This document shows positions 323-50,816 of a stretch of DNA of 64,000 nt, in pieces. Under the pieces are notes generated by a model. It worked only from the letters and a program-made list of their open reading frames with translations, was not told the DNA's origin and did no database searches. Source of the DNA: an uncultured Gammaproteobacteria bacterium (GTDB taxonomy: Bacteria; Patescibacteriota; Patescibacteriia; UBA9934); assembly GCA_964552565.1 (NCBI GenBank), contig CAZKGL010000001.1, positions 307,061-371,060 on the forward strand, given 5' to 3'. The stretch's first letter is position 1. The number at the start of each line of letters is the position of its first letter. The position numbers were made by a program, and so were the translations under genes.

Positions 323-430
323 GGCCGGGTCCTGCCGCCTTCGCACCCTGTCGCGCTGAGCGCGACCCTGTTGGGCGCTCGACTGGCGTCTACGCGCCCA
401 AGCAGGGGACCTGCTCGGCGTCACCCGGCT
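323..430 (+). repeat. Interspersed long-hairpin repeat, copy A. It carries an extra internal palindrome insertion GTCGCGCTGAGCGCGAC.
   Basis: Near-identical to the sequences at 15689-15783, 46214-46308 (reverse complement) and 50724-50816. The termini GGCCGGG...CCCGGCT are inverted repeats. Confidence 0.8.
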
Positions 431-1263: not shown

Positions 1264-1282
1264 TGTGGGAGGAGCGCTTGTC

Positions 1283-3802
1283 ATGACGGCATACGCGAAG
1301 ACGTCCGGTCTCAACACCGCGTCCGACCTTTCGTTTGCCCCGTACCTCGTCGTTGCGGCGATCCTCGCGGCCATCGTCGCGGTTGCGTTTTTCGTGGCGC
1401 GGTCGATGCTGCGCAAGAAATCGCGCCAGCGGGGCGGGGCGTACACGAACGTCACGCTCATGGTGACGATCCCCAAGTTCCGCAGCGAGGAAGAGGCGAA
1501 GGGCAACGACACCCAGCAGACCGTCAAGGAGTCGATTGCGATCGCCGAAACGTTCTTTTCCGCGGTCGGCGGCTTGAAGCCGGAGCACGGGTTGAAGGCG
1601 TGGCTGTACGGCCGCCCGGATTCCCTTGCGCTCGAGATCGTCGCGCACGCAAAGCTGGTGACGTTCTTCGTGACGGTGCCGCGGTATCTGCAGGAGTTCA
1701 TCGAACAGCAGCTCCATGCACAGTACAGCGACGCGCACATCGAGCCGGTCGAGGACTACAACCTGTTTGCGCCGACGGGCACGGTGCTCGGCGGCTATTT
1801 GACGTTAAAGCGCCAAAGCGTCTTCCCGCTCAAGACGTACAAGGAGCTCGATTCGGACCCCATGAACGCGCTCACGAACGCGTTGTCGAAGGTGCAGGAG
1901 GGCGACGGCGTTGCGGTGCAGTACATCGTGCGGCCAGCGCACCACGGCTGGCGCGAGCTTGGCGCGAAGATCGTGCGCAACATGAACAACGGCATGACGC
2001 TCGAGGAAGCGACGAAGGGCAAGTCGATGGCGAGCTGGTTTGCGACGAAGGAAGACGTCGAAAAGAAAAAAGAGGAGAAGCGCGAGCGCAAACTCTCCCA
2101 AGCTGAGCAGAAGATGGTCGAGGGGATCGGCAACAAGATCAGCAAGGCCGGCATGGAGGTCAATGTGCGCGTCGTGTCGTCCGCGCAATCGGCGGACACC
2201 GCGCTTGCGAACCTGAACAACGTGCTCCAGGCGTTCAGCCAGTACAACATTTACGAATACGGCAATTCGTTCAGCAAGGTCATCCCGCCGGGGAAGGGCA
2301 AGCTTATCGACGCGTTCATTTTCCGCACGTTCGAGGAGCGCCAGCGCGTCATCCTGAACACGGAAGAGATGGCGTCGCTCTGGCACCTGCCGCTCCCGTC
2401 GACCGATACCCCGAACATCCGCTGGATGCTTGCGCGCGTCGCGCCGGCGCCGACGAACACCCCGACCGAGGGCCTCTTGCTCGGGTTCAATACGTTCCGC
2501 GGCGTGAAGAAGGACGTCTACCTCAAGGATGCCGACCGCCGACGCCACCTGTACATCATCGGTAAAACGGGCGCCGGTAAGTCGGAGTTCATCAAGAACC
2601 AGGCGATCCAGGATATCCGGAACGGCAAGGGCGTCGCGGTCATCGACCCGCACGGCGACCTGGCGGACGGGCTGCTTGAACTCATCCCGAAGCATCGTTA
2701 CGACGACGTCATCTACTTCAATCCGTCCGACATGGAGCGCCCGATGGGTCTCAACATGCTCGAGGCGCCCAACGAGCAGATGCGCGACTTCGCCGTGCAG
2801 GAGATGATCAGCATCTTCTACATGCTGTTCCCGCCGGAGATGATCGGTCCCATGTTCGAGCACAACATGCGCAACTACATGCTGACGCTCATGGCCGACG
2901 TCGAGCATCCGGGCACCATCGTCGAGATCCCGCGCATGATTGCGGACGAGAAGTTCCAGCAGCAGTGGGTCGCGAAGGTCAAGGACCCGGTGGTGCGCAG
3001 CTTCTGGGAGGACGAGATGGCGAAGACGAGCGACTACCACAAGAGCGAGATGATGGGCTACCTCGTCAGCAAGGTCGGCCGTTTCGTCGAGAACGAGATG
3101 ATGCGCAATATCATCGGCCAGTCGAAGAGCGCGTTCAACTTCCGCGAGATCATGGACGAGGGCAAGATCCTCCTCGTTAACCTGTCGAAGGGCAAGACCG
3201 GCGAGGTGAACGGGAACCTCCTCGGCCTCATCCTTGTCGCGAAGCTCCAGATGGCGGCGTTCACCCGCGCGGACATCCCGGAGCCGGAGCGCAAGGATTT
3301 CTACCTGTACATCGACGAGTTCCAGAACTTCGTCACGCCGTCGATCGCCACGATCCTTTCCGAGGCGCGTAAGTACCGCCTGAACCTCGTGATGGCGCAC
3401 CAGTACATGGGGCAGCTTGTGAAGGACGGGAGGAGCGAGATCCGCGACGCTGTGCTTGGCAACGTCGGCAGCATGTTCGTGTCACGCATCGGTCCTGAAG
3501 ACACGGAGGTGCTTGCGAAGATCTACGAACCGACCTTCTCGCCGTACGACCTCATGAACAATGAGGCATACAGCTGGAATGCGAAGATCATCATCGACAA
3601 CTCGCAGGAGAAGCCGTTTACGCTCAAGGCGTATCCCCCGGAGAAGGGAAAGCCGAAGGTGGGCGAGGCCCTGAAGGAGATCTCGCGCCTCCTGTACGGA
3701 CGCGACAAGGGCATCGTGGAGCGCGAAATTACGATCCGCGCCGGGCTCGGCATGAAGCCGCCCGTAAAGCCCGTCGCCCCTGTTTCACCTCCAAGCCTCT
3801 AG
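1283..3802 (+). CDS. TraD/VirD4/TrwB-family type IV secretion coupling-protein-like ATPase with an N-terminal TM helix. Alternative start at 1265.
   Basis: Walker A IIGKTGAGKSEF followed by VIDPHGD (TrwB/T4SS-DNA-transfer signature). Walker B/TraG-D_C-like YLYIDEFQNF...VMAHQYMGQL. GGGAGGAG lies 8 nt upstream of ATG 1283. Confidence 0.6.
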   Translation: MTAYAKTSGLNTASDLSFAPYLVVAAILAAIVAVAFFVARSMLRKKSRQRGGAYTNVTLMVTIPKFRSEEEAKGNDTQQTVKESIAIAETFFSAVGGLKPEHGLKAWLYGRPDSLALEIVAHAKLVTFFVTVPRYLQEFIEQQLHAQYSDAHIEPVEDYNLFAPTGTVLGGYLTLKRQSVFPLKTYKELDSDPMNALTNALSKVQEGDGVAVQYIVRPAHHGWRELGAKIVRNMNNGMTLEEATKGKSMASWFATKEDVEKKKEEKRERKLSQAEQKMVEGIGNKISKAGMEVNVRVVSSAQSADTALANLNNVLQAFSQYNIYEYGNSFSKVIPPGKGKLIDAFIFRTFEERQRVILNTEEMASLWHLPLPSTDTPNIRWMLARVAPAPTNTPTEGLLLGFNTFRGVKKDVYLKDADRRRHLYIIGKTGAGKSEFIKNQAIQDIRNGKGVAVIDPHGDLADGLLELIPKHRYDDVIYFNPSDMERPMGLNMLEAPNEQMRDFAVQEMISIFYMLFPPEMIGPMFEHNMRNYMLTLMADVEHPGTIVEIPRMIADEKFQQQWVAKVKDPVVRSFWEDEMAKTSDYHKSEMMGYLVSKVGRFVENEMMRNIIGQSKSAFNFREIMDEGKILLVNLSKGKTGEVNGNLLGLILVAKLQMAAFTRADIPEPERKDFYLYIDEFQNFVTPSIATILSEARKYRLNLVMAHQYMGQLVKDGRSEIRDAVLGNVGSMFVSRIGPEDTEVLAKIYEPTFSPYDLMNNEAYSWNAKIIIDNSQEKPFTLKAYPPEKGKPKVGEALKEISRLLYGRDKGIVEREITIRAGLGMKPPVKPVAPVSPPSL

Positions 3803-15678: not shown

Positions 15679-15688
15679 CCATCACATC

Positions 15689-15783
15689 GGCCGGGTCCTG
15701 CCGCCTTCGCACCCTGTTGGGTGCTCGACTCGTCGGACTCGTCTGCGCGCCCAAGCAGGGGACCTGCTCGGCGTCACCCGGCC
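15689..15783 (+). repeat. Interspersed long-hairpin repeat, copy B, ending 6 nt upstream of tRNA-Arg
   Basis: GGCCGGGTCCTGCCGCCTTCGCACCCTGTTGGG...CCCAAGCAGGGGACCTGCTCGGCGTCACCCGGCC. Termini GGCCGGG/CCCGGCC are complementary. Confidence 0.8.
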
Positions 15784-15789
15784 GTTTCC

Positions 15790-20758: not shown

Positions 20759-21426
20759 GGGTGTTGTGGCGCATGGCAAAATGGTTGCTCGTGCTTGCGG
20801 TCGGCCTCACGATCGCGGTCTTTGTTTGTGCGCAGGCTGCGGTCGCGGAGATGGAGGCGAAGATCGTCACTGTCGCCGACCTTGCGCCGGCGCCGGCGGT
20901 CATCGTCCCCGGCGCGAGCGTGCTCAGGAACGGCCAGCCGTCCGACGTCCTCGCCGACCGGTTGCTGACCGCGATCGACATCTACGAGGCGGGGAAGGCG
21001 GAGAAGATCTTGGTGTCCGGCGACCATGGCGATGAGGAATATGACGAGGTGAACGTCATGCGGACGTACCTCCTCGACAAGGGCATCCCGGAGGAGGACA
21101 TTTTTCTCGACCACGCCGGGTTCGACACCTATGACACCATGTACCGCGCCCACCACCTTTTTGGGCTGACGGAGGCGGTCGTCGCCAGCCAGACGTTCCA
21201 CTTGCCCCGGGCGATCTATATCGGGGAGTCGCTTGGGATGGCGGTGCAGGGTGTGGCGTCGGAACGGCAGCCGTACGTCAAAGACGCGGAGTTTGCCTTC
21301 CGCGAGCGGTTCGCGGTCGTCAAAGCCTATGTGGATGTCATGCTGGGCTCGAATCCCGCGTATCTTGGCGAAAAAATCGATATTTCGGGCGATGGCCGCG
21401 TGACGTGGGACCAGGGGCTGGAATGA
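20755..21426 (+). CDS. DUF218-domain protein (YdcF/SanA/ElyC family)
   Basis: N-terminal TM plus a YdcF-like core. The start ATG overlaps the murJ stop as ATGA. Confidence 0.55.
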   Translation: MRVLWRMAKWLLVLAVGLTIAVFVCAQAAVAEMEAKIVTVADLAPAPAVIVPGASVLRNGQPSDVLADRLLTAIDIYEAGKAEKILVSGDHGDEEYDEVNVMRTYLLDKGIPEEDIFLDHAGFDTYDTMYRAHHLFGLTEAVVASQTFHLPRAIYIGESLGMAVQGVASERQPYVKDAEFAFRERFAVVKAYVDVMLGSNPAYLGEKIDISGDGRVTWDQGLE

Positions 21427-21435
21427 TGAGGGCGG

Positions 21436-21464
21436 TTGACAAACCTCGACCGCTCGTGTAGTAT
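21436..21464 (+). promoter_or_regulatory. Near-consensus sigma70 promoter TTGACA-N17-TAGTAT
   Basis: Hexamers read directly; the predicted TSS is ~17 nt upstream of the 21488 ORF. Confidence 0.5.
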
Positions 21465-21487: not shown

Positions 21488-21757
21488 TTGGACTTGATGG
21501 AGGGGACTTTTCCAAAGGGGGCAGATTTGGAAAAGATGGAGCGTGAGGAGATGTACTTCGTGACGTTTCGCGTGTCGTCCGACCGCCATGGGGAGATGTC
21601 GGTCACGATCCCGTGGGCCGACCGGTTCGGCAGCCATGCGCGGTTCTCGCACCCGATCCCTCGGGATGCGGTCATCGCGCCGGCGCCAGCCCAGCCGGTC
21701 CCGGATCAGATCAAGGTGCGCATCGGCGCCCTTGTGTTCGTCCGTCGCGCGGCCTGA
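21488..21757 (+). CDS. Hypothetical small protein
   Basis: ORF immediately downstream of the strong promoter; no family recognised. Confidence 0.3.
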   Translation: MDLMEGTFPKGADLEKMEREEMYFVTFRVSSDRHGEMSVTIPWADRFGSHARFSHPIPRDAVIAPAPAQPVPDQIKVRIGALVFVRRAA

Positions 21758-21850
21758 CCGCTGCGCCGTAGGCTCCCTCGCCTCGTCGAGGGCTCCTACC
21801 ACCCGTCTTCATCATCCCAGGATGGTGGCGAGCGGTGGAGGGAGAAACAG

Positions 21851-22753
21851 ATGGACTTTCACTTCGCCGTCCTCATGCAGCGGCTCGAGGCCGTGCAGCG
21901 GGACATGCCCGTGGTCATGGCCGCGGTGCGCAACGAGACGATCCGCGTCGCGTCCGACCCCATGCTCGCGTGGTACGGGGAGAAGATGGTGTACACGGGG
22001 TTCCTCATCATGGGCCTGTGCCTCGTCTTCAGCGAGGCGATCGCCGAAGCGGTGCACCCGCGGCCCCCGCCGCGGCCCCGGCCTCGCACCAGCCTCATCT
22101 CGCTCGTCCCGCCTCCTCCGCCCAGCGGCGGGGACGGCGAGGACGCGCCGCGCGAGGAGGAGCCCGACCCGTCGGTCCGCAACACGCTGCCGGGCGACCG
22201 GCCGCTGCCCGCGCGCCTCGGCCTCGCGTCCGCATCGGCGGATCTCGGCTCGCCGCCGGACCCCCCGTCCGTGCCGCGCTCCGTGCGTCGCATGATGGGG
22301 CTCGACGACATCCTCGGCGCGCCGCGCGAGGACGACCCGTTCGCCGCCATGCGCGGCCCCGGGTACCAGTCCGCGTTCGACCCGCCGTCTCCGGTCCTCG
22401 TGTCGGAGAACGCGGAGGACGTGCCGACGCCGTCCCAGCTGCCGCGCGCCACCTCGCCGACTGCTGAGCACGAGGAAGACCTCATGGGCGGCCACGGCGG
22501 AGGGGCGGACGACCAGGAGTCGACCGAGGACCTCGGCGCGGACGACCAGGGCTCCGGAGACGGCAACGAGGACGCGCCGGCCGAGGAGCCGGGGCTGGTG
22601 CCGCCCACCGCGGGCGAGTTCCTGGCCCTCTCGGGCTTCGGGAAGGTCGAGGACGATTTCTTCAACAGCGAGGTCGGCACCGTCGGGCCCGTGGACCCGT
22701 CCCGGCAGCCGGGACGCATGCCGCGCCCCTCGACCGAAGAGGAAGAGTCCTAG
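21851..22753 (+). CDS. Hypothetical protein with one TM, then a long Pro-rich/acidic disordered region
   Basis: GGAGGGAG lies 7 nt upstream of the ATG. The hydrophobic segment is YTGFLIMGLCLVF. Confidence 0.4.
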   Translation: MDFHFAVLMQRLEAVQRDMPVVMAAVRNETIRVASDPMLAWYGEKMVYTGFLIMGLCLVFSEAIAEAVHPRPPPRPRPRTSLISLVPPPPPSGGDGEDAPREEEPDPSVRNTLPGDRPLPARLGLASASADLGSPPDPPSVPRSVRRMMGLDDILGAPREDDPFAAMRGPGYQSAFDPPSPVLVSENAEDVPTPSQLPRATSPTAEHEEDLMGGHGGGADDQESTEDLGADDQGSGDGNEDAPAEEPGLVPPTAGEFLALSGFGKVEDDFFNSEVGTVGPVDPSRQPGRMPRPSTEEEES

Positions 22754-22771
22754 CGTCAACAAGGAGGAACG

Positions 22772-22812
22772 GACGGTGTCCAGATCGTGGGCACCGTCTT
22801 CCTATTTCTGGG
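22772..22812 (+). terminator. Hairpin GACGGTG...CACCGTC followed by a T-rich tract
   Basis: Read directly after the stop at 22753. Confidence 0.5.
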
Positions 22813-22935
22813 GATGCGCGCTTGTAAGCGAGCTTTACTTTTGCGAGAATTCGGTGTAGATTATTGCGTCGTTTTCCTTCTGGGCCGTCGATACGAGCCG
22901 TACCGGTTCGCGCCGATCCCTGGAGGGAAGGCAAC

Positions 22936-23187
22936 ATGCATATCGTTCGTGGCATCGGGGCGTTCATCGTCGTCATCGGGTCGTTCTTCGCAGGGGCGTT
23001 CATCGTGTGGCAGGAGTCCGCGCCGACGATCGCCGCCTACCAAGCGCACAGCGCGTCGACGGAGCGCATCGCCCGGGAGTGCATCGAGAACAGTGAGAGG
23101 CTCGGCGGCCTCGCGGACGAGGCGTCGCAGCTGGCGGCCGATTCGCTCGCGCGCTACATCGCCTGCCAGGAGGAGCAGGGCAACTAG
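22936..23187 (+). CDS. Array gene 1: small membrane protein (83 aa) with 1 TM and a helical tail
   Basis: GGAGGG lies 8 nt upstream of the ATG. Translation begins MHIVRGIGAFIVVIGSFFAGAFIVW. Confidence 0.55.
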   Translation: MHIVRGIGAFIVVIGSFFAGAFIVWQESAPTIAAYQAHSASTERIARECIENSERLGGLADEASQLAADSLARYIACQEEQGN

Positions 23188-23274
23188 GCGACGACAACGT
23201 CGCGCGTCCGGATACTCGGCACGAGGTTCTCCTCGCGCCGATCTCCGGCCGAATGGATCGACCGAGGAGGCACA

Positions 23275-23604
23275 ATGTTCGAGCTCGTGGTCTTTTATAT
23301 CGTGTACATGGTTTTCTTGTCCGCCGCCCTTGGTTTGGGCTCGGTGGTGGGGGCGCGAGTGCCGCGCACGCGCCGTCGACCGGTGGCGATTGGAGCCATC
23401 TTCGGCTTCGTGTTCTTCTTCCTGTCTACGATTGTCGTAGCGCTGATGGGGATGCACAACGCCATGAGCATCATCGTGGCGTGTGCCGTGGTGCACAATT
23501 TTTCTGGGGGACTCCTCATTCGGTTCGTGCTGCAGATCATCAGTGAGCGTCACCGCTCGGCCGACGCCATTCGCCGCCTCTACCCTGACGACCACGTGCA
23601 GTGA
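23275..23604 (+). CDS. Array gene 2: small polytopic membrane protein (109 aa)
   Basis: Leader ...CCGGCCGAATGGATCGACCGAGGAGGcacaATG; about 3 TM helices. Confidence 0.55.
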   Translation: MFELVVFYIVYMVFLSAALGLGSVVGARVPRTRRRPVAIGAIFGFVFFFLSTIVVALMGMHNAMSIIVACAVVHNFSGGLLIRFVLQIISERHRSADAIRRLYPDDHVQ

Positions 23605-23867
23605 TGACGAGCATCGCCGCGTTCGTGTTCATGTCTTCGCTGCCGACTGCAGCGTACGTCGTCGCCGCGCTGTTCCTCGGGAGCGGCGCACTGCACTGGC
23701 GCAGTGCGTATCCGGCTGTAGGCCCGATTGTGGGCTGTGCGTGTGGGCATATCGTCGGAGCGCTGTTGGGCGAGATGATCGTGCAGGATCAGCTGATGTG
23801 GCCCGCCGCAATCGTGGTCCTGGCCGTCTACGTCGTCATGCACTTCGTGATCGCGTATTGCAGGTAG
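23604..23867 (+). CDS. Array gene 3: small membrane protein (87 aa)
   Basis: ATG overlaps the upstream stop (TGATG). About 3 TM helices. Confidence 0.45.
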   Translation: MTSIAAFVFMSSLPTAAYVVAALFLGSGALHWRSAYPAVGPIVGCACGHIVGALLGEMIVQDQLMWPAAIVVLAVYVVMHFVIAYCR

Positions 23868-23972
23868 GTGGCCCCGTCGCTCGCGAGCGACGGGGCGGGC
23901 CGGACGTCGAGATGAGGAAACGCCTCGTCTCGATCACCGGCCGAATCAACCAATCGGCCCCGGAGGTTGCCA

Positions 23973-24167
23973 GTGGTCCGTACCGTGTTGCGTATCTTCG
24001 TTCTCGGCATCATCATCGGGATCGTTGCGTCACTCGTCGGGGAGGGGTTGTTCGGCCACGACAGTCCCGTGCGGGCGCGGATGATGACCGCGGGCGCCGC
24101 GGTTCTGCTCATGCTCGGGCTTCCGGACCTTTGGGACATGTGGAAGGCGAAGAAGCGGGAGGGGTGA
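23973..24167 (+). CDS. Array gene 4: small membrane protein (~64 aa). GTG start proposed; an alternative TTG start lies at 23967.
   Basis: GGAGG sits 6 nt upstream of the GTG; 2 TM helices. Confidence 0.4.
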   Translation: MVRTVLRIFVLGIIIGIVASLVGEGLFGHDSPVRARMMTAGAAVLLMLGLPDLWDMWKAKKREG

Positions 24168-24323
24168 GCATCTGTCCGGCGTTTGCTCGCTCGTGTCGCG
24201 CGACGATTCCTCGAAGTCGTCGCGCCGCCGTCAATGTTCGAGTGTTCAAAAATGGCCGATCGTCATTTTTTGAACACATGGTCATCGACGGCCGAATGGA
24301 TCGACCGAGGAGGTACCTGTCCC

Positions 24324-24551
24324 ATGTTCCGCGCCATGCTCGCCCGCGTCCGTACGATGGATGCTGACGAGATCATCCTCTACTTCTGGTCGCCAACGGC
24401 CCTGCTGCTCATCATCCCGGGGATCTTCATCCGGGAAGTGGCTGCCCAGCAGGCGTTCGGCAAGCTGATGTTCGGGTGGCTGGTGTTCACTCCGCTCCTG
24501 TACCTCATCGTCTGCCTGGTTCGACGCGGGCCCGTGAAGACCGCCTCGTGA
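24324..24551 (+). CDS. Array gene 5: small membrane protein (75 aa)
   Basis: Same GGCCGAATGGATCGACCGAGGAGG leader module as gene 2; 2 TM helices. Confidence 0.5.
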   Translation: MFRAMLARVRTMDADEIILYFWSPTALLLIIPGIFIREVAAQQAFGKLMFGWLVFTPLLYLIVCLVRRGPVKTAS

Positions 24552-24726
24552 CGCCGACGGACGACGAGCTGGACCTGTTCCCTGAACTTCGTGACGACCG
24601 CTAGCCAGTCGTCCTGCCGGATCCTCGGCATCACCGGTTCGCGGTGGTGCCAAGTCCCGGCCGAAGGTGTGCGGCGCGGGAATGTCCCCGCGCGGCATGC
24701 GTGACCACCGGCCAACGGAGGACGTC

Positions 24727-25014
24727 ATGATCGTCATGATGTTCGTAGCAATCCTCAGCGCACCGGTGCACGCCGCCGATGCGTTCGCGTCATGGCCGCC
24801 GCCTGAGCCGCCGCAGCAGGAGGACGAGTGTGCGGGCGAGCTCGCCGAGGCGAACGCCCGCATTGTCGAGCTCGAGGAGGCGCTCATCGACGCGGAATGC
24901 GACACGGTGCGTGACCGCTGGGTTTCCCGTGTGGAAGATATTGTCACTGGGCTCGTCGTGGCGGGCGTCCTTGGCGCGCTGGTCTGGCTCAAGCCGGACC
25001 ACACGGGTCGCTGA
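24727..25014 (+). CDS. Array gene 6: small secreted or bitopic protein (95 aa) with a signal peptide, coiled coil and C-terminal TM
   Basis: Leader ...CCACCGGCCAACGGAGGacgtcATG. Signal peptide MIVMMFVAILSAPVHAADA. Confidence 0.5.
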   Translation: MIVMMFVAILSAPVHAADAFASWPPPEPPQQEDECAGELAEANARIVELEEALIDAECDTVRDRWVSRVEDIVTGLVVAGVLGALVWLKPDHTGR

Positions 25015-25019
25015 TCGAG

Positions 25020-25280
25020 ATGCGCGCACTTCGGACGCTGCTCCTCGCGGTCGCCGTGGCGCCGATCGTCGGCGTGTGGGCGTTCCCGCTGGGCGGGTTG
25101 CTCGCGGTCGCCATCTACGCGGTTCTCCTTGGCATCGGCCGCGCGGAGGACGCGGCGTGGTGCCTGCTCGGCTTCCCGTGCGCCGGGCTTGCGCTCGTCG
25201 GCCTGTCGCGCTCCCACGAGGAGCGGTGGCTTGCCGCCATTCCCATGCCGTCGCCCGACGATACGCCGTTCGCGGCGTGA
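25020..25280 (+). CDS. Array gene 7: small membrane protein (86 aa)
   Basis: Starts 5 nt after the gene 6 stop; ~3 TM helices; no own SD. Confidence 0.4.
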   Translation: MRALRTLLLAVAVAPIVGVWAFPLGGLLAVAIYAVLLGIGRAEDAAWCLLGFPCAGLALVGLSRSHEERWLAAIPMPSPDDTPFAA

Positions 25281-25398
25281 TGTCGGACAGCCGGACGTCG
25301 AGATGAGGGAACGCCCTTGTCTCGATCACCGGCCGAAGGTGTGCGGCGCGGGAATGTCCCCGCGCGGCATGCGTGACCACCGGCCAACGGAGGCCACC

Positions 25399-25728
25399 AT
25401 GGGCATCGTCATCGTCACTCTTTCCGTTTCCGCTGCGTGGATCATCGGGCTGGCGGCGCTCCTCGGACTCATGGATCCATGGCCCCTCTTCTCCCGGAAC
25501 ATCCGAGAGTGGATGCTGGCCGCGGCTCCGGTCCCGCCCGTCCGCCCGATGTCGCCGATCGTGTCGCCTGCGCTCCTCATGATGTCCGGCATTGTGCTCA
25601 TCGCCGCATCGCTGCCCCTCGTCACTATGGAGTGGGGATGCCTTTCGAGGATCATCCTCATCATCATCGGAGGGGCGTTCGTCGCCACCGCGCTCACGCG
25701 GATCCACCGGTACTTCACGGTGGGCTAG
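25399..25728 (+). CDS. Array gene 8: small polytopic membrane protein (109 aa)
   Basis: Same CCGGCCGAAGGTGTGCGGCGCGGGAATGTCCCCGCGCGGCATGCGTGACCACCGGCCAACGGAGG leader as gene 6. Confidence 0.5.
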   Translation: MGIVIVTLSVSAAWIIGLAALLGLMDPWPLFSRNIREWMLAAAPVPPVRPMSPIVSPALLMMSGIVLIAASLPLVTMEWGCLSRIILIIIGGAFVATALTRIHRYFTVG

Positions 25729-25828
25729 CGGGAACGCCGTCCGGATACTCGGCACGAGGTTCTCCTCGCGCCGATCTCCGGCCGAACTGTTCGGTCCCGT
25801 TCCGTCCAACCCTGTCCCCGGAGGTTCC

Positions 25829-26248
25829 GTGGAGCACGTGCACTTCGCGATCGCCGCCATCGTGCCGCCGACACGCCACTCGCTCGGCGCGTTGGTCGTC
25901 ATGTGCGCCGTCGCGGCCGCCATCATCTTCATCCTGGCGAAGCCGGAGTTCGCGCGGCGCATCGCGCGGCGCATGCTCCGCGTGGGAATCGCGCTTGCCA
26001 TCATGACGCTGCTCATCATCGGCGGGTACGCGCTGCGCGTCGGCCTGTCGGGTGTCGGCCTGCCCGAGTCGCTGTCGAACATCATCGGCTTCACGGTGAC
26101 GTGGGGCGGGATGTACCTGGTCATCATCGACTGGATGCGCCGGCAGCGCGCGTTCCTCGCATCGCAACAGCAGGCTGCGCGCGACGCAGGCGTCCGCGCG
26201 CTCCGCCCTGGCCGCTTCCCGCACCCCGAGCCACCGGAGGACCCATGA
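25829..26248 (+). CDS. Array gene 9: membrane protein (~139 aa), GTG start
   Basis: CCCCGGAGGttccGTG; 3-4 TM helices. Confidence 0.45.
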   Translation: MEHVHFAIAAIVPPTRHSLGALVVMCAVAAAIIFILAKPEFARRIARRMLRVGIALAIMTLLIIGGYALRVGLSGVGLPESLSNIIGFTVTWGGMYLVIIDWMRRQRAFLASQQQAARDAGVRALRPGRFPHPEPPEDP

Positions 26249-26526
26249 ACCAGGTCGTGTCGCTCTTTGTCCGACTCTCGTACCACCCGGCCGCGCCGTA
26301 CCTCACGATGCTCATCGTCGGAGAGGCGGCTGTCGGACTCATCTCCTGGGGCGGCGGACTCACGCACGTCCCCTGGTGGCATGCGGCGCTCGGCGTCGGC
26401 GTCACCATGCTGGTGCTGACGGCCGCTCTCCGCGCCGACGAGCGGACGCTGGCGAAGTACTACGGGCACATGCTCGTCGCCTTCGCCGCCGTCGTGCTCC
26501 TCGTCGGCTGGATGGTGACGCCGTGA
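26245..26526 (+). CDS. Array gene 10: small membrane protein (93 aa)
   Basis: GGAGGacccATG overlaps the upstream stop (ATGA); 3 TM helices. Confidence 0.5.
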   Translation: MNQVVSLFVRLSYHPAAPYLTMLIVGEAAVGLISWGGGLTHVPWWHAALGVGVTMLVLTAALRADERTLAKYYGHMLVAFAAVVLLVGWMVTP

Positions 26527-26684
26527 CGCTCACGGCCGCCTCCGTCGCTGCGTGCGCCGTCGACCTCGTCCTCGCGCTCGCCGTCCTCGTCGCCATGATC
26601 CGATGGTGGCCGGAGACGCGGCGCGAGCGCCTCAATCGCCGCATGGGAGGACCGGACCTCCGTGAACGCCCCCGCTCGTGCTGA
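26523..26684 (+). CDS. Array gene 11: very small TM protein (~53 aa), GTG start overlapping the upstream stop (GTGA)
   Basis: One TM plus a basic tail. Weakly supported; the terminator follows. Confidence 0.25.
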   Translation: MTLTAASVAACAVDLVLALAVLVAMIRWWPETRRERLNRRMGGPDLRERPRSC

Positions 26685-26708
26685 GCCGGGGCGTTCTTCC
26701 TTTTATTG
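26664..26708 (+). terminator. Rho-independent terminator closing the small-gene array
   Basis: GAACGCCCCCG...CGGGGCGTTC hairpin followed by TTCCTTTTATT. Confidence 0.55.
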
Positions 26709-26745
26709 CAAACGATGGGCGTTTTCGTTACACTCATCCCATTCT

Positions 26746-33593: not shown

Positions 33594-34028
33594 CTATGCC
33601 GCGCGTCGGATGCATTGTCCCAGCCAGGTGACGAGGTCGTTTTGCACGGCTTTGTTATCTGTCGATGAGGATTCAGCGACACGGATAACCGTCGCTTCAA
33701 GTTGTTCGGGTGGACAGGTAAATTCGTATCCGTTGATGGCGAGGAACACGATGAGCGCAGTACAGGCGATTCGCTTGTTACCGTTGTGCAGCGCATGTGC
33801 TTTTACAATGCCATAAAAGAGCACCGCAGCCTTCTCCTCGAAGCGAGGATACAGTTCTTGGCCTGCAAATGACTGTTGCGGACTGAAAAGTGCTGCATCC
33901 AGTTTGTGCAATTCGTTACGAGGGTCATCGAATGCGGGCATCGGCTCTCCGTATCGCGCAAACATCTCATTCGCAAGCGTCAACGCGAGTGTACGCAAAT
34001 CGTCCATTGTTAAGTAACGGACAGACAT
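33594..34028 (-). CDS. doc: Doc (death-on-curing) family toxin, Fic fold
   Basis: HALHNGNKRIACTALIVFLAINGY matches the Doc HxFx(D/N)GNKR motif. Confidence 0.75.
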   Translation of the reverse strand: MSVRYLTMDDLRTLALTLANEMFARYGEPMPAFDDPRNELHKLDAALFSPQQSFAGQELYPRFEEKAAVLFYGIVKAHALHNGNKRIACTALIVFLAINGYEFTCPPEQLEATVIRVAESSSTDNKAVQNDLVTWLGQCIRRAA

Positions 34029-34030
34029 GG

Positions 34031-34186
34031 CTATTTGTCCGCAAGATTGCGCAAAACTTGACCGTAGCGCTCTACGGTCATCCGCGTCGCCTCTTCGACG
34101 CTGATCCGCTTTGTCGGCATCTTCTCGACGTGCCGGCGGGTCAACGAGCGGATCTTTTTCTTTGCCTCATGGTAGAGTTTGCGCAT
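34031..34186 (-). CDS. Putative antitoxin (51 aa) immediately upstream of doc; below the ORF-track cutoff
   Basis: My own translation of the minus strand is MRKLYHEAKKKIRSLTAGHVEKMPTKRISVEEATRMTVERYGQVLRNLADK. It stops 2 nt before the doc ATG. Confidence 0.4.
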   Translation of the reverse strand: MRKLYHEAKKKIRSLTRRHVEKMPTKRISVEEATRMTVERYGQVLRNLADK

Positions 34187-34317
34187 AGGAGAGGGTCTCG
34201 TTCCATCATACAGAAGGCATCAGATCCTGCCAACTCGCTCGTGCACCGTGCGGGGTTGCGCGATTTCTATCCCCAGAACAGATTGTGGGGCAGCGTACGT
34301 TTGCTATTCTTTCGCAT

Positions 34318-35538
34318 ATGAAAAAGCACATCTGGCTGTGGACGTCGTATGATCTGGCGAATTCACTGGCGTCCGTGACGGTGGCGTTTTACTTCAGCCT
34401 TTGGCTCGTCAAAGAACGCGGCGCGTCCGACCTTTGGGTCAGCCTTCCCATGGCGATCGCGACGTTCATCCTTCTCATCACATTGCCGTACTTCGGCAAA
34501 CTGTCCGACCAGATGGGGAAGCGCAAGCCATTCCTTGCGGTCACGACGACCGTCGCCGCAGCGGCACTCATGGCGCTCGGATGGTACGCCTCTGGCGTCG
34601 ATGTGCTCACGAACGGGTCGCTTGCCGTCATCGTCATCCTTTTCTCTGTCTACCAGTATTGCTTCCAGGCGGCACTTGCATTTTACATGGCGTATCTGGC
34701 CGACCTCGCCGTTGCGAAGTCGAAAGAAGCAGTCGCTGGTCTTGGCGTCGCTGCGGGCCAGATGGGGAATATCATCGGACTTATTGTCGCATTGCCCTTG
34801 GCCGAACAGTCCGGCCGTCCGATGGCACTCCTGCTCGGTGGTGCGATGTTTCTCGTCGTGGCGCTCCCGATGCTCATCTGGTTGCCGGAAGCCAAACGCA
34901 CGAGCGGACAGGCGGTCATGGCATCGCCAAAGGAGATGCTGCGCTCACTGAAGGATATCCGCGCCGTCCCAGGTTTGCTCCGTTACCTCCTGGTCTTCTA
35001 CCTTTTCGCGGATGCGCTGTTGACGCTGAACGCCTTCGTATCCCTTTACCTTGAAGAAGTTGGAGGAATGACCGACAAGACAAAGACGCTGGTGATGGTC
35101 ATTGGGCTGTTGCTTGCAGTGTTAAGCGGTACGGTCGCCGACCGTTTGATGCGTGCAATCGGAAGCCTCAAACGTGCCATGTCCGTCCTCATCCTCACGT
35201 GGGTCGTATTCATCATCGCGCTTGCGCTTGTGACGTCCCCAGTCGCGTTCGGCATCGTGGCATCCCTGAACGGCTTCGCATTCGGTGCGCTCTTCGCGCT
35301 TTCCCGCGCCTACTACTCCGACCTTGCGCCGCGCCACCGGCAGGGTGAATTCTTTGGCTATTACGTCCTCTTCGAGCGTTTCGCATCCATGATCGGCCCG
35401 CTCTTGTGGAGCCTTGTCGCACTGCTCTTTATTGATCTCGGCGCCGACCGGTACCGGTTTTCCGTCGCCTCGCTCGCCATCCTCGTTGCGCTGAGTTACG
35501 TCCTCCTCCGGAAGGTTCCTGAGCCAAAGCGCTTGTAA
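34318..35538 (+). CDS. MFS-type transporter
   Basis: About 12 predicted TM segments with an MFS-like motif region (LPYFGKLSDQMGKRKP). Confidence 0.65.
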   Translation: MKKHIWLWTSYDLANSLASVTVAFYFSLWLVKERGASDLWVSLPMAIATFILLITLPYFGKLSDQMGKRKPFLAVTTTVAAAALMALGWYASGVDVLTNGSLAVIVILFSVYQYCFQAALAFYMAYLADLAVAKSKEAVAGLGVAAGQMGNIIGLIVALPLAEQSGRPMALLLGGAMFLVVALPMLIWLPEAKRTSGQAVMASPKEMLRSLKDIRAVPGLLRYLLVFYLFADALLTLNAFVSLYLEEVGGMTDKTKTLVMVIGLLLAVLSGTVADRLMRAIGSLKRAMSVLILTWVVFIIALALVTSPVAFGIVASLNGFAFGALFALSRAYYSDLAPRHRQGEFFGYYVLFERFASMIGPLLWSLVALLFIDLGADRYRFSVASLAILVALSYVLLRKVPEPKRL

Positions 35539-35539
35539 C

Positions 35540-35572
35540 AAAAACCCTCTCGCTCCGACGAGGGGTTTTGTA
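35540..35572. terminator. Terminator copy 2: AAAACCCTCTCGC-tccga-CGAGGGGTTTTG
   Basis: Near-identical to 33552-33586. Confidence 0.65.
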
Positions 35573-35587
35573 ATATAATGATTATAT

Positions 35588-35848
35588 ATGACTCGAAAAC
35601 AATGGGGATGGTGTTTCATAATCATTCCCTGGGTTGGGCTGGCAATAATAATTCTTTGGCAAGCGTTGGACAGCCCAGTTTCTTACGATCCTGCTGCTAT
35701 GGTTGATACACGGTCGCAGGTAAATGCGGCTGCAATTCGAGGCGTTTTTACCATTATCTCTTTCACAGGAATTTTAGTTGGCAATCCTCTAGGTATCTAT
35801 CTTATAAGGTCAGCTGATCGGAAGAAAAATATTTCCCCTGGTCGGTAA
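35588..35848 (+). CDS. Small membrane protein (86 aa) in a local low-GC (~43%) island
   Basis: AT-rich codons (ata, att, tta) in an otherwise ~65% GC context; flanked by terminator copies 2 and 3. Confidence 0.45.
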   Translation: MTRKQWGWCFIIIPWVGLAIIILWQALDSPVSYDPAAMVDTRSQVNAAAIRGVFTIISFTGILVGNPLGIYLIRSADRKKNISPGR

Positions 35849-35878
35849 AGCCTCTCGCTTCACGCGAGGGGTTTTTGG
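35848..35878. terminator. Terminator copy 3: AAAGCCTCTCGC-ttcac-GCGAGGGGTTTTTGG
   Basis: Same stem sequence as copies 1 and 2. Confidence 0.6.
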
Positions 35879-35921
35879 TTGCAATTGGATGAGACTGCTG
35901 GTAGCCTAAGGTGCACTGGAG

Positions 35922-36200
35922 GTGTCCATGGCATTCTTCGACTGGATCGGAAGTCCCGATTCGCTGCCCGTCTTCATCGCGCTCGTGGTCGCGATCCTCT
36001 CGAACCTCGCGCCCATCCCCGTGACGGCGGCGCTCGCCATCGGTTGGTCGCTGTTCGTCACCATCGGCCTCGCGCGGACGTGGATTCTCTCCCGCCGCAC
36101 GGAGAACGGCATGACGGTCGGCGACGCCACCATGTTTCTTGTCTTCTACCATCTGCCGGTCGTCCTGTGCGCCTTCGTCATCTGGACGCGCACGCACTGA
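35922..36200 (+). CDS. Hypothetical small membrane protein (~3 TM)
   Basis: Hydrophobic ORF. Confidence 0.4.
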   Translation: MSMAFFDWIGSPDSLPVFIALVVAILSNLAPIPVTAALAIGWSLFVTIGLARTWILSRRTENGMTVGDATMFLVFYHLPVVLCAFVIWTRTH

Positions 36201-46206: not shown

Positions 46207-46213
46207 AGGAGAA

Positions 46214-46308
46214 GGGCGGGTGACGCCGAGCAGGTCCCCTGCTTGGGCGCGCAGACGAGTCCGACGAGTCGAGCACCCAACAGGGTGCGAAGGCGGCAGG
46301 ACCCGCCC
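46214..46308 (-). repeat. Interspersed long-hairpin repeat, copy C. It fills the def-fmt intercistronic gap in gene orientation.
   Basis: The reverse complement is identical to copy B except for termini GGGCGGG/CCCGCCC, which are a compensatory change. Confidence 0.8.
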
Positions 46309-46312
46309 GGCA

Positions 46313-50723: not shown

Positions 50724-50816
50724 AAAAATCGGGTCCTGCCACCTTCGCACCCTGTTGAGTGCTCGACTGGCGTCTGCGCGCTCAACAGGGGACCTGCTCG
50801 GTGTCACCCGGTTTTT
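50724..50816 (+). repeat. Interspersed long-hairpin repeat, copy D, antisense to the flanking genes
   Basis: AAAAATCGGG...CCCGGTTTTT termini, with two internal compensatory pairs relative to copy B. Confidence 0.75.

What the first reader, a model, noticed from the sequence alone, without database searches (positions are those of the whole stretch)
22900..26710. Tandem array of ~11 small membrane-protein genes with their own hairpin leaders (cassette / immunity-island-like)
About 3.8 kb holds 11 ORFs of 53-139 aa on one strand. Nearly all are predicted single- or multi-pass membrane proteins with no mutual similarity.
- Each sits behind its own leader. A possible TTGTAA/GAGAAT promoter precedes the array and a clean terminator closes it at 26664-26708.
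- Several genes are translationally coupled (TGATG, ATGA, GTGA overlaps).
- I do not recognise these proteins. The architecture (many unrelated small TM proteins, repeat-punctuated) resembles orphan immunity-gene islands or integron-like cassette arrays.
- No integrase or recombinase is in the window.
Basis: partly seen in the sequence, partly recalled or inferred. Interest (0 to 1): 0.85.

Follow-up and report, generated by a model that had tools for sequence, protein, structure and literature searches.

The report
Orphan membrane-gene operon with repeated hairpin spacers
A candidate-phylum (Uhrbacteria) genome carries a lineage-specific 3.9 kb operon of 11 small membrane-protein genes with no detectable relatives; its seven gene units are separated by a repeated two-hairpin spacer built around an invariant CGGCCGAA, which most likely works in the RNA, although a new kind of gene-cassette junction is not excluded.

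Summary
Window 22936-26684 holds 11 co-oriented ORFs of 53-139 aa. All are in the best host codon-usage frame, all have at least one TM-like segment, and none resembles another. None matches Pfam, NCBIfam, PHROGs or PADLOC. The four tested in the large protein collections (o1, o2, o9, o10) hit only themselves.

The genes form 7 units, not 11. Six junctions carry the same architecture:
- hairpin B, with a conserved GCCGG/CCGGC foot and a variable upper stem;
- an invariant CGGCCGAA;
- hairpin C;
- GGAGG, then the start codon.

B and C types are combined mosaically. Eight Uhrbacteria-like relatives keep MurJ-(DUF218)-alaS but lack the array.

It is not a canonical integron. There are no R''/R' attC boxes, no recombinase was found in the 64 kb, and composition is host-like. 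No immunity family is hit.

In 5 of 6 junctions the SD lies 2-3 nt after hairpin C, in a genome that rarely uses SDs. The internal hairpins also lack T-tracts. I therefore favour intercistronic RNA processing/stability/translation modules within one transcript (confidence about 0.45). A non-integron cassette junction remains possible (about 0.2). Only one MAG from one sample carries the locus, so nothing here is decisive.

The parts
21851..22753 (+). o0: 300-aa protein with one TM segment and a long Pro/acidic tail. It is probably associated with the array. Relatives have a short acidic ORF at this position.
   Evidence: Its GGAGGGAG SD sits in a long hairpin, as for o1. No Pfam or PADLOC hit.
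22771..22809 (+). Terminator-like hairpin plus T-rich tail that ends the o0 transcript
22822..22850 (+). Possible promoter TTGTAA-17-GAGAAT, in the only AT-rich stretch of the block
   Evidence: Sequence. It matches 8 of 12 consensus positions, below the scanner's threshold. Inferred only.
22872..22931 (+). Leader 1: a long hairpin in which UUUUCCUUCUGGG pairs with CCCUGGAGGGAAGG and hides the o1 SD
   Evidence: fold; P unpaired of the SD = 0.006
22936..23187 (+). o1, 83 aa: N-terminal TM plus a soluble helical tail. Orphan.
23188..23203 (+). Hairpin A directly after the o1 stop codon
23205..23253 (+). Junction 1: hairpin B type 1 plus core CGGCCGAA
   Evidence: Identical to the copy at 25738-25786.
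23247..23263 (+). Hairpin C type 1; GGAGG follows at 23266
23275..23867 (+). Unit of o2 (109 aa, 3 TM) and o3 (87-88 aa, 3 TM), overlapping by TGATG
   Evidence: o2 has no homologue among 1.84e9 representative proteins.
23871..23896 (+). Hairpin A (perfect 11-bp palindrome) after o3
   Evidence: (I20)
23898..23945 (+). Junction 2: hairpin B type 2 plus core
23939..23959 (+). Hairpin C type 3 (GGCCGA/UCGGCC); GGAGG follows at 23962
23973..24167 (+). o4, 64 aa (start ambiguous: TTG 23967, GTG 23973 or GTG 23985)
24198..24225 (+). Hairpin A after o4
24227..24296 (+). Junction 3: hairpin B type 4 (long, AT-rich centre, foot GCCGUC/GACGGC) plus core
   Evidence: (I3)
24290..24306 (+). Hairpin C type 1 (second copy); GGAGG follows at 24309
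   Evidence: (D11)
24324..24551 (+). o5, 75 aa, 2 TM
24616..24665 (+). Junction 4: hairpin B type 3 plus core
24659..24713 (+). Hairpin C type 2; GGAGG follows at 24717. It contains an in-frame ATG (24682) that NCBI uses as the o6 start.
   Evidence: (D1)
24727..25280 (+). Unit of o6 (95 aa: signal-like N-terminus, coiled region, C-terminal TM) and o7 (86 aa), with a 5-nt gap between them
25290..25337 (+). Junction 5: hairpin B type 2' plus core. It differs from the 23898 copy by pair-preserving changes.
   Evidence: (D13, D2)
25331..25385 (+). Hairpin C type 2 (second copy; 100% identical over 65 nt to 24657-24721); GGAGG follows at 25389
   Evidence: (D1)
25399..25728 (+). o8, 109 aa, 3 TM
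25738..25786 (+). Junction 6: hairpin B type 1 (second copy) plus core
   Evidence: (D4)
25780..25797 (+). Hairpin C type 4; GGAGG follows at 25820
25838..26684 (+). Unit of o9 (136-139 aa), o10 (93 aa) and o11 (53 aa), coupled by ATGA and GTGA overlaps
   Evidence: o9 and o10 are orphans.
26665..26708 (+). Intrinsic terminator (GC stem plus CTTCCTTTTATT) closing the array; it overlaps the o11 stop codon

Best explanation
The block 22.82-26.71 kb is one lineage-specific transcription unit. It encodes 11 fast-evolving, orphan small membrane or envelope proteins of a high-GC Candidatus Uhrbacteria bacterium.

The repeated junction (hairpin B, CGGCCGAA, hairpin C, GGAGG) most likely acts in the mRNA as an intercistronic module. 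The proposed steps are:
1. The polycistronic RNA is cut by an endoribonuclease. The site would be either the short single-stranded CGAA linker just 3' of the conserved foot of hairpin B, or the foot and internal loop of B itself.
2. Hairpin B then protects the 3' end of the upstream segment.
3. Hairpin C caps the 5' end of the downstream segment and holds a strong Shine-Dalgarno just outside a stable helix.

Each of the seven units would thus get its own stability and translation rate. The first gene (and o0 upstream) is additionally held off by an SD-sequestering hairpin.

The mosaic of B and C types would arise from unequal or homologous exchange between junctions at the shared core. The same exchange would also expand or shrink the array.

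**Shown:** the anatomy, the predicted folds, the SD geometry, absence of the array from relatives, and orphan status.
**Inferred:** co-transcription, cleavage, the role of the core, and any function of the proteins.
For: - **Non-random core.** Six invariant CGGCCGAA lie on the coding strand in 3.8 kb (about 0.22 expected). Each follows a hairpin of -26 to -35 kcal/mol, and none of the other 8 copies in the window does.
- **Conserved foot, free upper stem.** The B feet are conserved (GCCGG/CCGGC, with one G-C to U-A swap in type 4). The upper stems are four unrelated sequences that all pair, and the two type-2 copies differ by pair-preserving changes including G-U.
- **Paired CGGC, open CGAA.** In the folding ensemble, CGGC of the core is paired in all six junctions. 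The following CGAA is mostly unpaired.
- **Fixed SD spacing.** Every C type pairs GGCCGA(A) with a downstream complement, and GGAGG starts 2-3 nt after C in 5 of 6 junctions.
- **Unusual SD use.** GGAGG precedes 8 of 11 array genes, including all 7 unit-first genes, but only 3 of 37 other genes of this genome (Fisher P = 6e-5). Many of the other genes look leaderless.
- **No internal terminators.** Internal hairpins have no T-tract, whereas this genome's terminators do, including the one that closes the array.
- **Strand of the wobble pairs.** G-U pairs make the sense strand fold better for B2, B4 and C2.
- **Native genes.** Codon use and GC3 are host-like.
- **A relevant nuclease.** An RNase J-like beta-CASP nuclease is encoded in the window.
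Against: - There are no transcript data. Cleavage, co-transcription and the role of the octamer are all inferred.
- Only four B types and four C types exist, in one genome and one sample. Covariation support is therefore thin.
- B1 folds better on the antisense strand.
- No Rfam family matches, and the covariance model finds no further copy in 328 kb of window plus relatives.
- Modules 100% identical over 49-65 nt sit next to completely unrelated coding sequences. Selection on RNA structure alone does not easily produce this; it requires recent copying of modules.
Confidence: 0.45

Rival explanations
1. A non-integron gene-cassette array. Hairpin B plus CGGCCGAA would be a structure-recognised recombination site, analogous to attC. 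Each unit (C ... ORFs ... B) would be a mobile cassette exchanged at the core by a recombinase or HUH/Y1 enzyme encoded elsewhere in the genome.
For: - Unrelated orphan ORFs sit between near-identical junction modules.
- Every B-C combination differs, and the switch point lies exactly at the invariant octamer. Module identity starts at the hairpin foot.
- B has a basal stem, an internal loop and a distal stem, with a variable tip, as attC sites do.
- The array is absent from all 8 relatives with conserved flanks.
- Unit sizes of 351-924 bp are cassette-like.
Against: - No R''/R' attC boxes lie in the array on either strand.
- The Pfam scans and precomputed gene calls found no tyrosine/serine recombinase, transposase or reverse transcriptase in the 64 kb.
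- Composition and codon use are uniform and host-like.
- Three units hold 2-3 coupled genes.
- The SD is fixed 2-3 nt after hairpin C, and G-U pairs on the sense strand point to RNA.
- Homologous exchange at the shared core explains the mosaic without any dedicated enzyme.
- No second copy of the site was found outside the array.
Confidence: 0.2
2. REP/BIME-like selfish or neutral palindromic repeats. These would have accumulated in the spacers of an ordinary operon of fast-evolving membrane-protein genes, with at most a generic mRNA-stabilising effect. The conserved octamer would simply be part of the repeat.
For: - The junctions are mosaics of short palindromic modules.
- The genome carries another, unrelated structured repeat family with 4 copies in the same 64 kb, so it tolerates or propagates hairpin repeats.
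- Extra hairpins (A) follow three stop codons.
Against: - The B/C modules occur only inside this array and nowhere else in the window or the relatives.
- Orientation is strictly the same at all six junctions.
- The position relative to the SD is fixed.
- No RAYT/IS200-like gene was found in the window.
Confidence: 0.15
3. Orphan immunity or protection island. The 11 membrane proteins would be immunity factors against membrane-targeting toxins, bacteriocins or phages, collected in one locus like AID/rAID clusters. This is a claim about protein function and is compatible with any of the junction models.
For: [quoted passage not shown]
- The array is absent from relatives.
Against: - No hit to any immunity, defence or phage family.
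- No cognate toxins or secretion-system effectors were seen nearby. The flanking recombinase and GC skew that define rAID-1 are absent.
- The four proteins tested have no homologues at all, whereas orphan immunity genes are recognised through homology to cognate immunity genes.
Confidence: 0.1

Closest known systems
RNase III processing hairpins between cistrons of phage T7 early mRNA, and similar operon-internal stabiliser hairpins (from general knowledge, not tested here)
   Same: A hairpin of roughly two helical turns, interrupted by an internal loop, sits between consecutive cistrons of one long transcript. In the T7 case, cleavage leaves the upstream message with a protective 3' hairpin. 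Here B has a 5-6 bp foot, a 2-3 nt internal loop and a 10-13 bp upper stem at each of six junctions.
   Different: Cleavage is not shown here. The sites here carry an invariant octamer and a second hairpin that abuts the SD, and they separate orphan membrane-protein genes in a CPR bacterium.
Integron cassette arrays and CALINs (attC sites)
   Same: Co-oriented, mostly promoterless, unrelated small ORFs are each followed by a structured imperfect palindrome with a conserved foot and a variable tip. Sites are highly similar while the ORFs are unrelated. The switch between modules lies at a fixed point at the 3' foot.
   Different: There is no RYYYAAC/GTTRRRY and no IntI was found in 64 kb. The sense-strand folds are as good or better, the SD is part of the repeat unit, several units hold more than one gene, and composition is host-like.
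rAID-1 recombinase-associated orphan immunity arrays of Bacteroidales (bioRxiv 10.1101/471110)
   Same: A long co-directional array of small unrelated genes with repetitive intergenic sequences.
   Different: rAID-1 is defined by a 5' XerD-like recombinase and skewed low GC, and its genes are homologous to known immunity genes. None of these is present here.
REP/BIME extragenic palindromes of enterobacteria (from general knowledge)
   Same: Mosaic combinations of short palindromic units in operon spacers, with known mRNA-stabilising effects.
   Different: REP/BIME elements are dispersed in hundreds of copies and associated with RAYT transposases. Here the modules are confined to one operon, in one orientation, and tied to the SD.
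Synthetic 'insulator' parts (a ribozyme or Csy4 cleavage site followed by a hairpin and then the RBS; from general knowledge)
   Same: The order matches: cleavage or processing site, then a hairpin, then an exposed SD 2-3 nt later.
   Different: Those parts are engineered, and no natural family with this sequence is known. There is no ribozyme or other Rfam match.

Membership tests
Integron cassette array / CALIN | attC sites with inverse core R'' (RYYYAAC) and core R' (GTTRRRY) flanking an imperfect palindrome | tested here: not met
   A regex scan of both strands found no R''...R' pair in 21-28 kb. GTTRRRY occurs only once per strand in the array, and not at a junction.
Integron cassette array / CALIN | Hairpin with a basal stem, an unpaired central spacer, a distal stem and a variable tip, functional as the bottom strand | tested here: inconclusive
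   The B hairpins have a foot, an internal loop and an upper stem. However, the sense strand folds better for 3 of 4 types, owing to G-U/G-T pairs.
Integron cassette array / CALIN | intI integrase with attI and Pc next to the array (not required for a CALIN) | tested here: not met
   No recombinase domain appears in the Pfam scans or the precomputed gene calls covering the 64 kb.
Integron cassette array / CALIN | Cassette content varies between strains, with boundaries at the site | not testable with these tools
   The locus exists in one MAG and one sample only. More distant relatives lack the whole array.
rAID-1 orphan immunity cluster | 5' XerD-like tyrosine recombinase | tested here: not met
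   The upstream genes are MurJ, DUF218 and o0, with no recombinase.
rAID-1 orphan immunity cluster | GC content skewed relative to the genome | tested here: not met
   Array GC is 0.67 and GC3 0.86; control genes have GC 0.64 and GC3 0.83.
rAID-1 orphan immunity cluster | Genes homologous to known immunity families | tested here: not met
   No significant Pfam, NCBIfam, PHROGs or PADLOC hit. Four of four proteins tested are orphans.
rAID-1 orphan immunity cluster | Co-directional array with repetitive intergenic sequences | tested here: met
Intercistronic RNA processing/stability hairpins (T7 RNase III-site type) | Located between cistrons of a single polycistronic transcript | tested here: inconclusive
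   There is one AT-rich promoter-like region and one T-tract terminator, and the internal hairpins lack T-tracts. No transcript data exist.
Intercistronic RNA processing/stability hairpins (T7 RNase III-site type) | Extended hairpin with an internal loop | tested here: met
   Folds give 15-27 pairs, with an internal loop above a 5-6 bp foot.
Intercistronic RNA processing/stability hairpins (T7 RNase III-site type) | Endonucleolytic cleavage at the site in vivo | not testable with these tools
   This needs RNA end mapping.
REP/BIME | Many copies dispersed through extragenic space of the genome | tested here: not met
   Copies lie only inside the array, within 64 kb plus relatives.
Known cis-regulatory RNAs, riboswitches and ribozymes (Rfam 15) | Match to a curated covariance model | tested here: not met
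   No relevant hit at the gathering threshold or at E <= 10.
Known multi-subunit membrane complex | Subunits match families of one complex | tested here: not met
   There are only sub-threshold, unrelated Pfam hits and none in NCBIfam.

The most novel reading that the evidence does not exclude
The hairpin-plus-CGGCCGAA junctions are recombination sites of a previously unknown, non-integron gene-cassette system in CPR bacteria. Each unit (hairpin C, SD, ORFs, hairpin B) would be a mobile cassette that brings its own translation signal, captured into a fixed chromosomal slot upstream of alaS by an enzyme encoded elsewhere in the genome.
Probability: 0.15. Interest if true: 0.85.

Novelty: new variant of a known kind. 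Interest (0 to 1): 0.45.

Why it matters
- **If the RNA reading holds.** This would be a natural, compact 'cut, cap and expose the RBS' module repeated six times in one operon. It sits in a genome that otherwise relies mostly on leaderless or SD-less initiation. That makes it a clean case for studying how CPR bacteria set expression ratios within a polycistron, and a possible source of insulator parts.
- **If the DNA reading holds.** It would be a cassette-capture system unrelated to integrons, in a phylum where mobile-gene mechanisms are almost unknown.
- **In either case.** The locus marks a lineage-specific hotspot for orphan membrane proteins next to envelope genes (MurJ, DUF218). This is the kind of accessory surface repertoire thought to matter for the episymbiotic lifestyle of CPR bacteria.

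Tried and rejected
**Family and homology searches**
- Rfam at the gathering threshold and at E <= 10: only tRNAs and noise. This rejects riboswitch, ribozyme and ANTAR-type readings. Loop sequences also do not fit guanidine-II or ANTAR motifs by eye.
- Canonical attC boxes: absent.
- Pfam, NCBIfam, PHROGs and PADLOC on the peptides: nothing above threshold.
- Homologue searches for o1, o9 and o10 (5.8e9 clusters) and exhaustive phmmer for o2 (1.84e9 representatives): self hits only.
- tblastn of the 11 array peptides plus o0 against 80 alaS loci: no hit.
- Paralogy among the 11 proteins: none significant.
- Prepilin-like N-termini: not present, by inspection.

**Searches for further copies or relatives**
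- alaS-anchored scans of genomes and metagenomes gave relatives of at most 83% AlaRS identity, and none has the array.
The one double hit, L365, is a duplicated coding gene.
- blastn of the 3.9 kb against phage and plasmid collections: no match.
- The covariance model of B plus core finds only its own training copies.
- Exact-protein look-ups for strain variants returned the same MAG and the same SRA run only.

**Other tests**
- SD-accessibility comparison with control genes: not significant (P = 0.2). Most control genes have no SD at all, which became a finding in its own right.
- Strand asymmetry of the hairpins: mixed.
- Structure prediction was not attempted. The proteins are single-sequence orphans made of TM helices, so fold matches would be meaningless.

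Full report
**Source and setting.**
The window is chromosomal DNA of a high-GC (0.62-0.63) Candidatus Uhrbacteria (Patescibacteria/CPR) MAG.
- The array genes are identical to those on contig JACOUU010000014.1 of GCA_016177675.1 (locus tags HYS28_01410 to HYS28_01455). Otherwise they occur only in Logan contigs of one run, SRR12113420.
- The neighbours are ordinary chromosomal genes. Upstream lie GT2, CorA, PTAC, a CARDB-domain protein, MurJ and DUF218. Downstream lie alaS, NUDIX, IF-1 and ribosomal protein genes.
- No recombinase, transposase or reverse transcriptase domain appears among the precomputed gene calls or my Pfam scans across the 64 kb.

- Eleven + strand ORFs of 53-139 aa lie between 22936 and 26684, and NCBI calls the same eleven.
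- They are coding by composition. GC3 is 0.78-0.92 against 0.73-0.88 in housekeeping genes. Under a codon model trained on confident genes of the window, the annotated frame is the best of six for all eleven. The long antisense ORFs score negative.
- Every product has at least one strongly hydrophobic 19-mer, and several have three.
- The 11 proteins are not detectably related to one another. BLASTP gives nothing below E = 0.07 among the array peptides. Among 55 Smith-Waterman comparisons against shuffles, the lowest p is 0.02.
- The stated overlaps (TGATG, ATGA, GTGA) and the closing terminator at 26665-26708 are in the sequence.
- The proposed promoter TTGTAA-17-GAGAAT sits in the only AT-rich stretch. 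It matches 8 of 12 consensus positions and was not called by the scanner.

**The proteins are orphans.**
- Pfam, NCBIfam, PHROGs and PADLOC give no hit above any curated threshold.
- o1, o9 and o10 searched against 5.8 billion clusters return only themselves. So does o2 in an exhaustive phmmer search of 1.84 billion representatives.
- They therefore do not match a known multi-subunit complex. There is also no positive evidence for an immunity, holin, pilin or transporter role.

**The array is accessory.**
- Eight Uhrbacteria-like relatives (AlaRS 70-83% identical, GC about 0.5) keep the order PTAC, CARDB, MurJ, (DUF218), alaS.
- Between MurJ/DUF218 and alaS they have at most one short acidic ORF. 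None has small TM genes there, and none of the 11 array peptides (nor o0) hits any of 80 alaS loci by tblastn.
- The 3.9 kb block (4.9 kb with o0) is therefore lineage-specific.
- Its base composition and codon use are those of the host. It is either old in this lineage or was made there.

**The junctions are the interesting part.**
The genes fall into seven units: [o1][o2,o3][o4][o5][o6,o7][o8][o9,o10,o11]. Each of the six internal junctions contains an invariant CGGCCGAA on the + strand. Six copies in 3.8 kb compare with about 0.22 expected, P about 1e-7.

The layout is the same at every junction:
- **Hairpin B** comes first, at -26 to -35 kcal/mol. Its foot is conserved: GCCGG/CCGGC, or GCCGUC/GACGGC in one type, which is a G-C to U-A swap. 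Above a small internal loop, the upper stem has one of four unrelated sequences.
- **The core.** In the folding ensemble CGGC is always paired, as the 3' side of the B foot. The following CGAA is mostly single-stranded.
- **Hairpin C** follows. In all four of its types, the 5' arm GGCCGA(A) overlaps the core and pairs with a downstream complement.
- **GGAGG** starts 2-3 nt after C in five of the six junctions, and 22 nt after it in the sixth. The start codon follows 4-13 nt later.
- Three junctions have an extra hairpin A directly after the preceding stop codon.

None of the other eight CGGCCGAA in the window has such a context. A covariance model of B plus core finds nothing else in 328 kb of window and related loci.

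**The modules are mosaic.**

| Junction (before) | B type | C type |
|---|---|---|
| 1 (o2) | B1 | C1 |
| 2 (o4) | B2 | C3 |
| 3 (o5) | B4 | C1 |
| 4 (o6) | B3 | C2 |
| 5 (o8) | B2' | C2 |
| 6 (o9) | B1 | C4 |

- No B-C combination repeats.
- The two B1 copies are identical over 49 nt, and the two C2 copies over 65 nt. The flanking coding sequences are unrelated.
- Similarity starts at the hairpin foot and ends at or just past the start codon.
- The two B2 copies differ by changes that keep pairing, one of them through a G-U pair.

**Why I favour an RNA-level role.**
- The repeat unit includes the ribosome-binding site at a fixed distance from hairpin C. A DNA recombination site has no reason to do this.
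- The genome hardly uses Shine-Dalgarno sequences. Only 3 of 37 other genes have GGAGG within 4-20 nt of the start, and many have a -10-like box 12-18 nt before the ATG, as leaderless mRNAs do. In contrast, 8 of 11 array genes have it, including all seven unit-first genes (P = 6e-5).
- The internal hairpins lack the T-tract that follows this genome's recognisable terminators, including the array's own. The block therefore looks like one transcript.
- Wobble pairs favour the sense strand for B2, B4 and C2. B1 is the exception.
- The first gene's SD is buried in a long hairpin (P unpaired = 0.006), and o0 upstream shows the same device.

The layout runs: a long hairpin with an internal loop, a short single-stranded conserved linker, a second hairpin, then an exposed SD. 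This is the logic of intercistronic processing sites such as the RNase III sites of T7 early mRNA, and of engineered 'cleave, hairpin, RBS' insulators (general knowledge, not tested). An RNase J-like nuclease is encoded in the window. Exchange between junctions at the shared core can produce the mosaic, and can change unit number, without any dedicated enzyme.

**Why the cassette reading is not dead.**
- Near-identical structured sites between unrelated orphan ORFs, with a module switch exactly at an invariant core at the 3' foot of a hairpin, is also the signature of cassette arrays.
- Identity of 100% over 49-65 nt next to unalignable coding sequence is awkward for pure structural selection.
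- The site is nevertheless not an attC, and no enzyme was found in the window.
- I could not scan the rest of the genome or any strain variant, so I put this reading at about 0.2. A REP-like neutral repeat (0.15) gains some support from a second, unrelated hairpin repeat family with four copies in the same window. An immunity function for the proteins (0.1) has no positive support.

**Limits.**
- One MAG and one sample, with no transcript data.
- Only four independent versions of each hairpin.
- Several start codons are ambiguous. NCBI starts o6 and o8 at an ATG inside C2, which would give both a shared MSPRGMRDHRPTE N-terminus.

**Verdict.**
The finding is real and unusual in its junction architecture. 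It is not an integron, and nothing shows it to be an immunity island. It is best filed as a new variant of operon-internal RNA processing/translation modules in an orphan membrane-protein operon, with a minority chance of being a new cassette system.

Noticed in passing
window 361-428 (+), 15688-15789 (+), 46208-46309 (-), 50746-50811 (+): A second, unrelated structured repeat family of about 70-100 nt. It forms a long hairpin, CACCCTGTTGGGTGC...GCGCCCAAGCAGGGG, followed by ACCTGCTCGGCGTCACCCGG. One copy abuts tRNA-Arg and another abuts the fmt start codon. One G-C to A-U compensatory pair is seen among the copies, and there is no Rfam match.
   Followed up: partly
whole window (37 annotated starts examined, e.g. 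15922, 18159, 26746, 39195, 42426, 50707): Most genes lack a Shine-Dalgarno, and many have a TAnAnT-like box 12-18 nt upstream of the ATG. This suggests widespread leaderless or near-leaderless mRNAs in this Uhrbacteria genome. GGAGG-led genes are rare outside the array.
   Followed up: partly
window 21757-21850 (leader of o0, 21851-22753): The o0 leader folds into a long hairpin that pairs CUCCUACCACC with GGUGGAGGGAG and so hides its SD, much like the o1 leader. o0 (one TM plus a Pro/acidic tail) may belong functionally to the array.
   Followed up: partly
window 21303-21447: These 145 bp are present in the window but absent from the copy of NCBI contig JACOUU010000014.1 returned as L081. 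They encode the conserved C-terminus of the DUF218 protein, so the deposited contig probably carries a deletion or an assembly error.
   Followed up: partly
window 1265-3802 (+): An 845-aa protein with VirD4/TraG/TrwB coupling-protein ATPase domains, on an otherwise housekeeping stretch.
   Followed up: no
window 24682 and 25354: In-frame ATGs lie inside the two identical C2 modules. NCBI uses them as the starts of o6 and o8, which would give both proteins the same 13-residue N-terminus, MSPRGMRDHRPTE. The GGAGG-led ATGs 45 nt downstream look more likely, but this is unresolved.
   Followed up: partly
window 34000-36000: A dip in GC to 0.53-0.57 around the Fic-domain gene, a 51-aa ORF and an MFS transporter gene. 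This may be a small foreign or variable segment.
   Followed up: no
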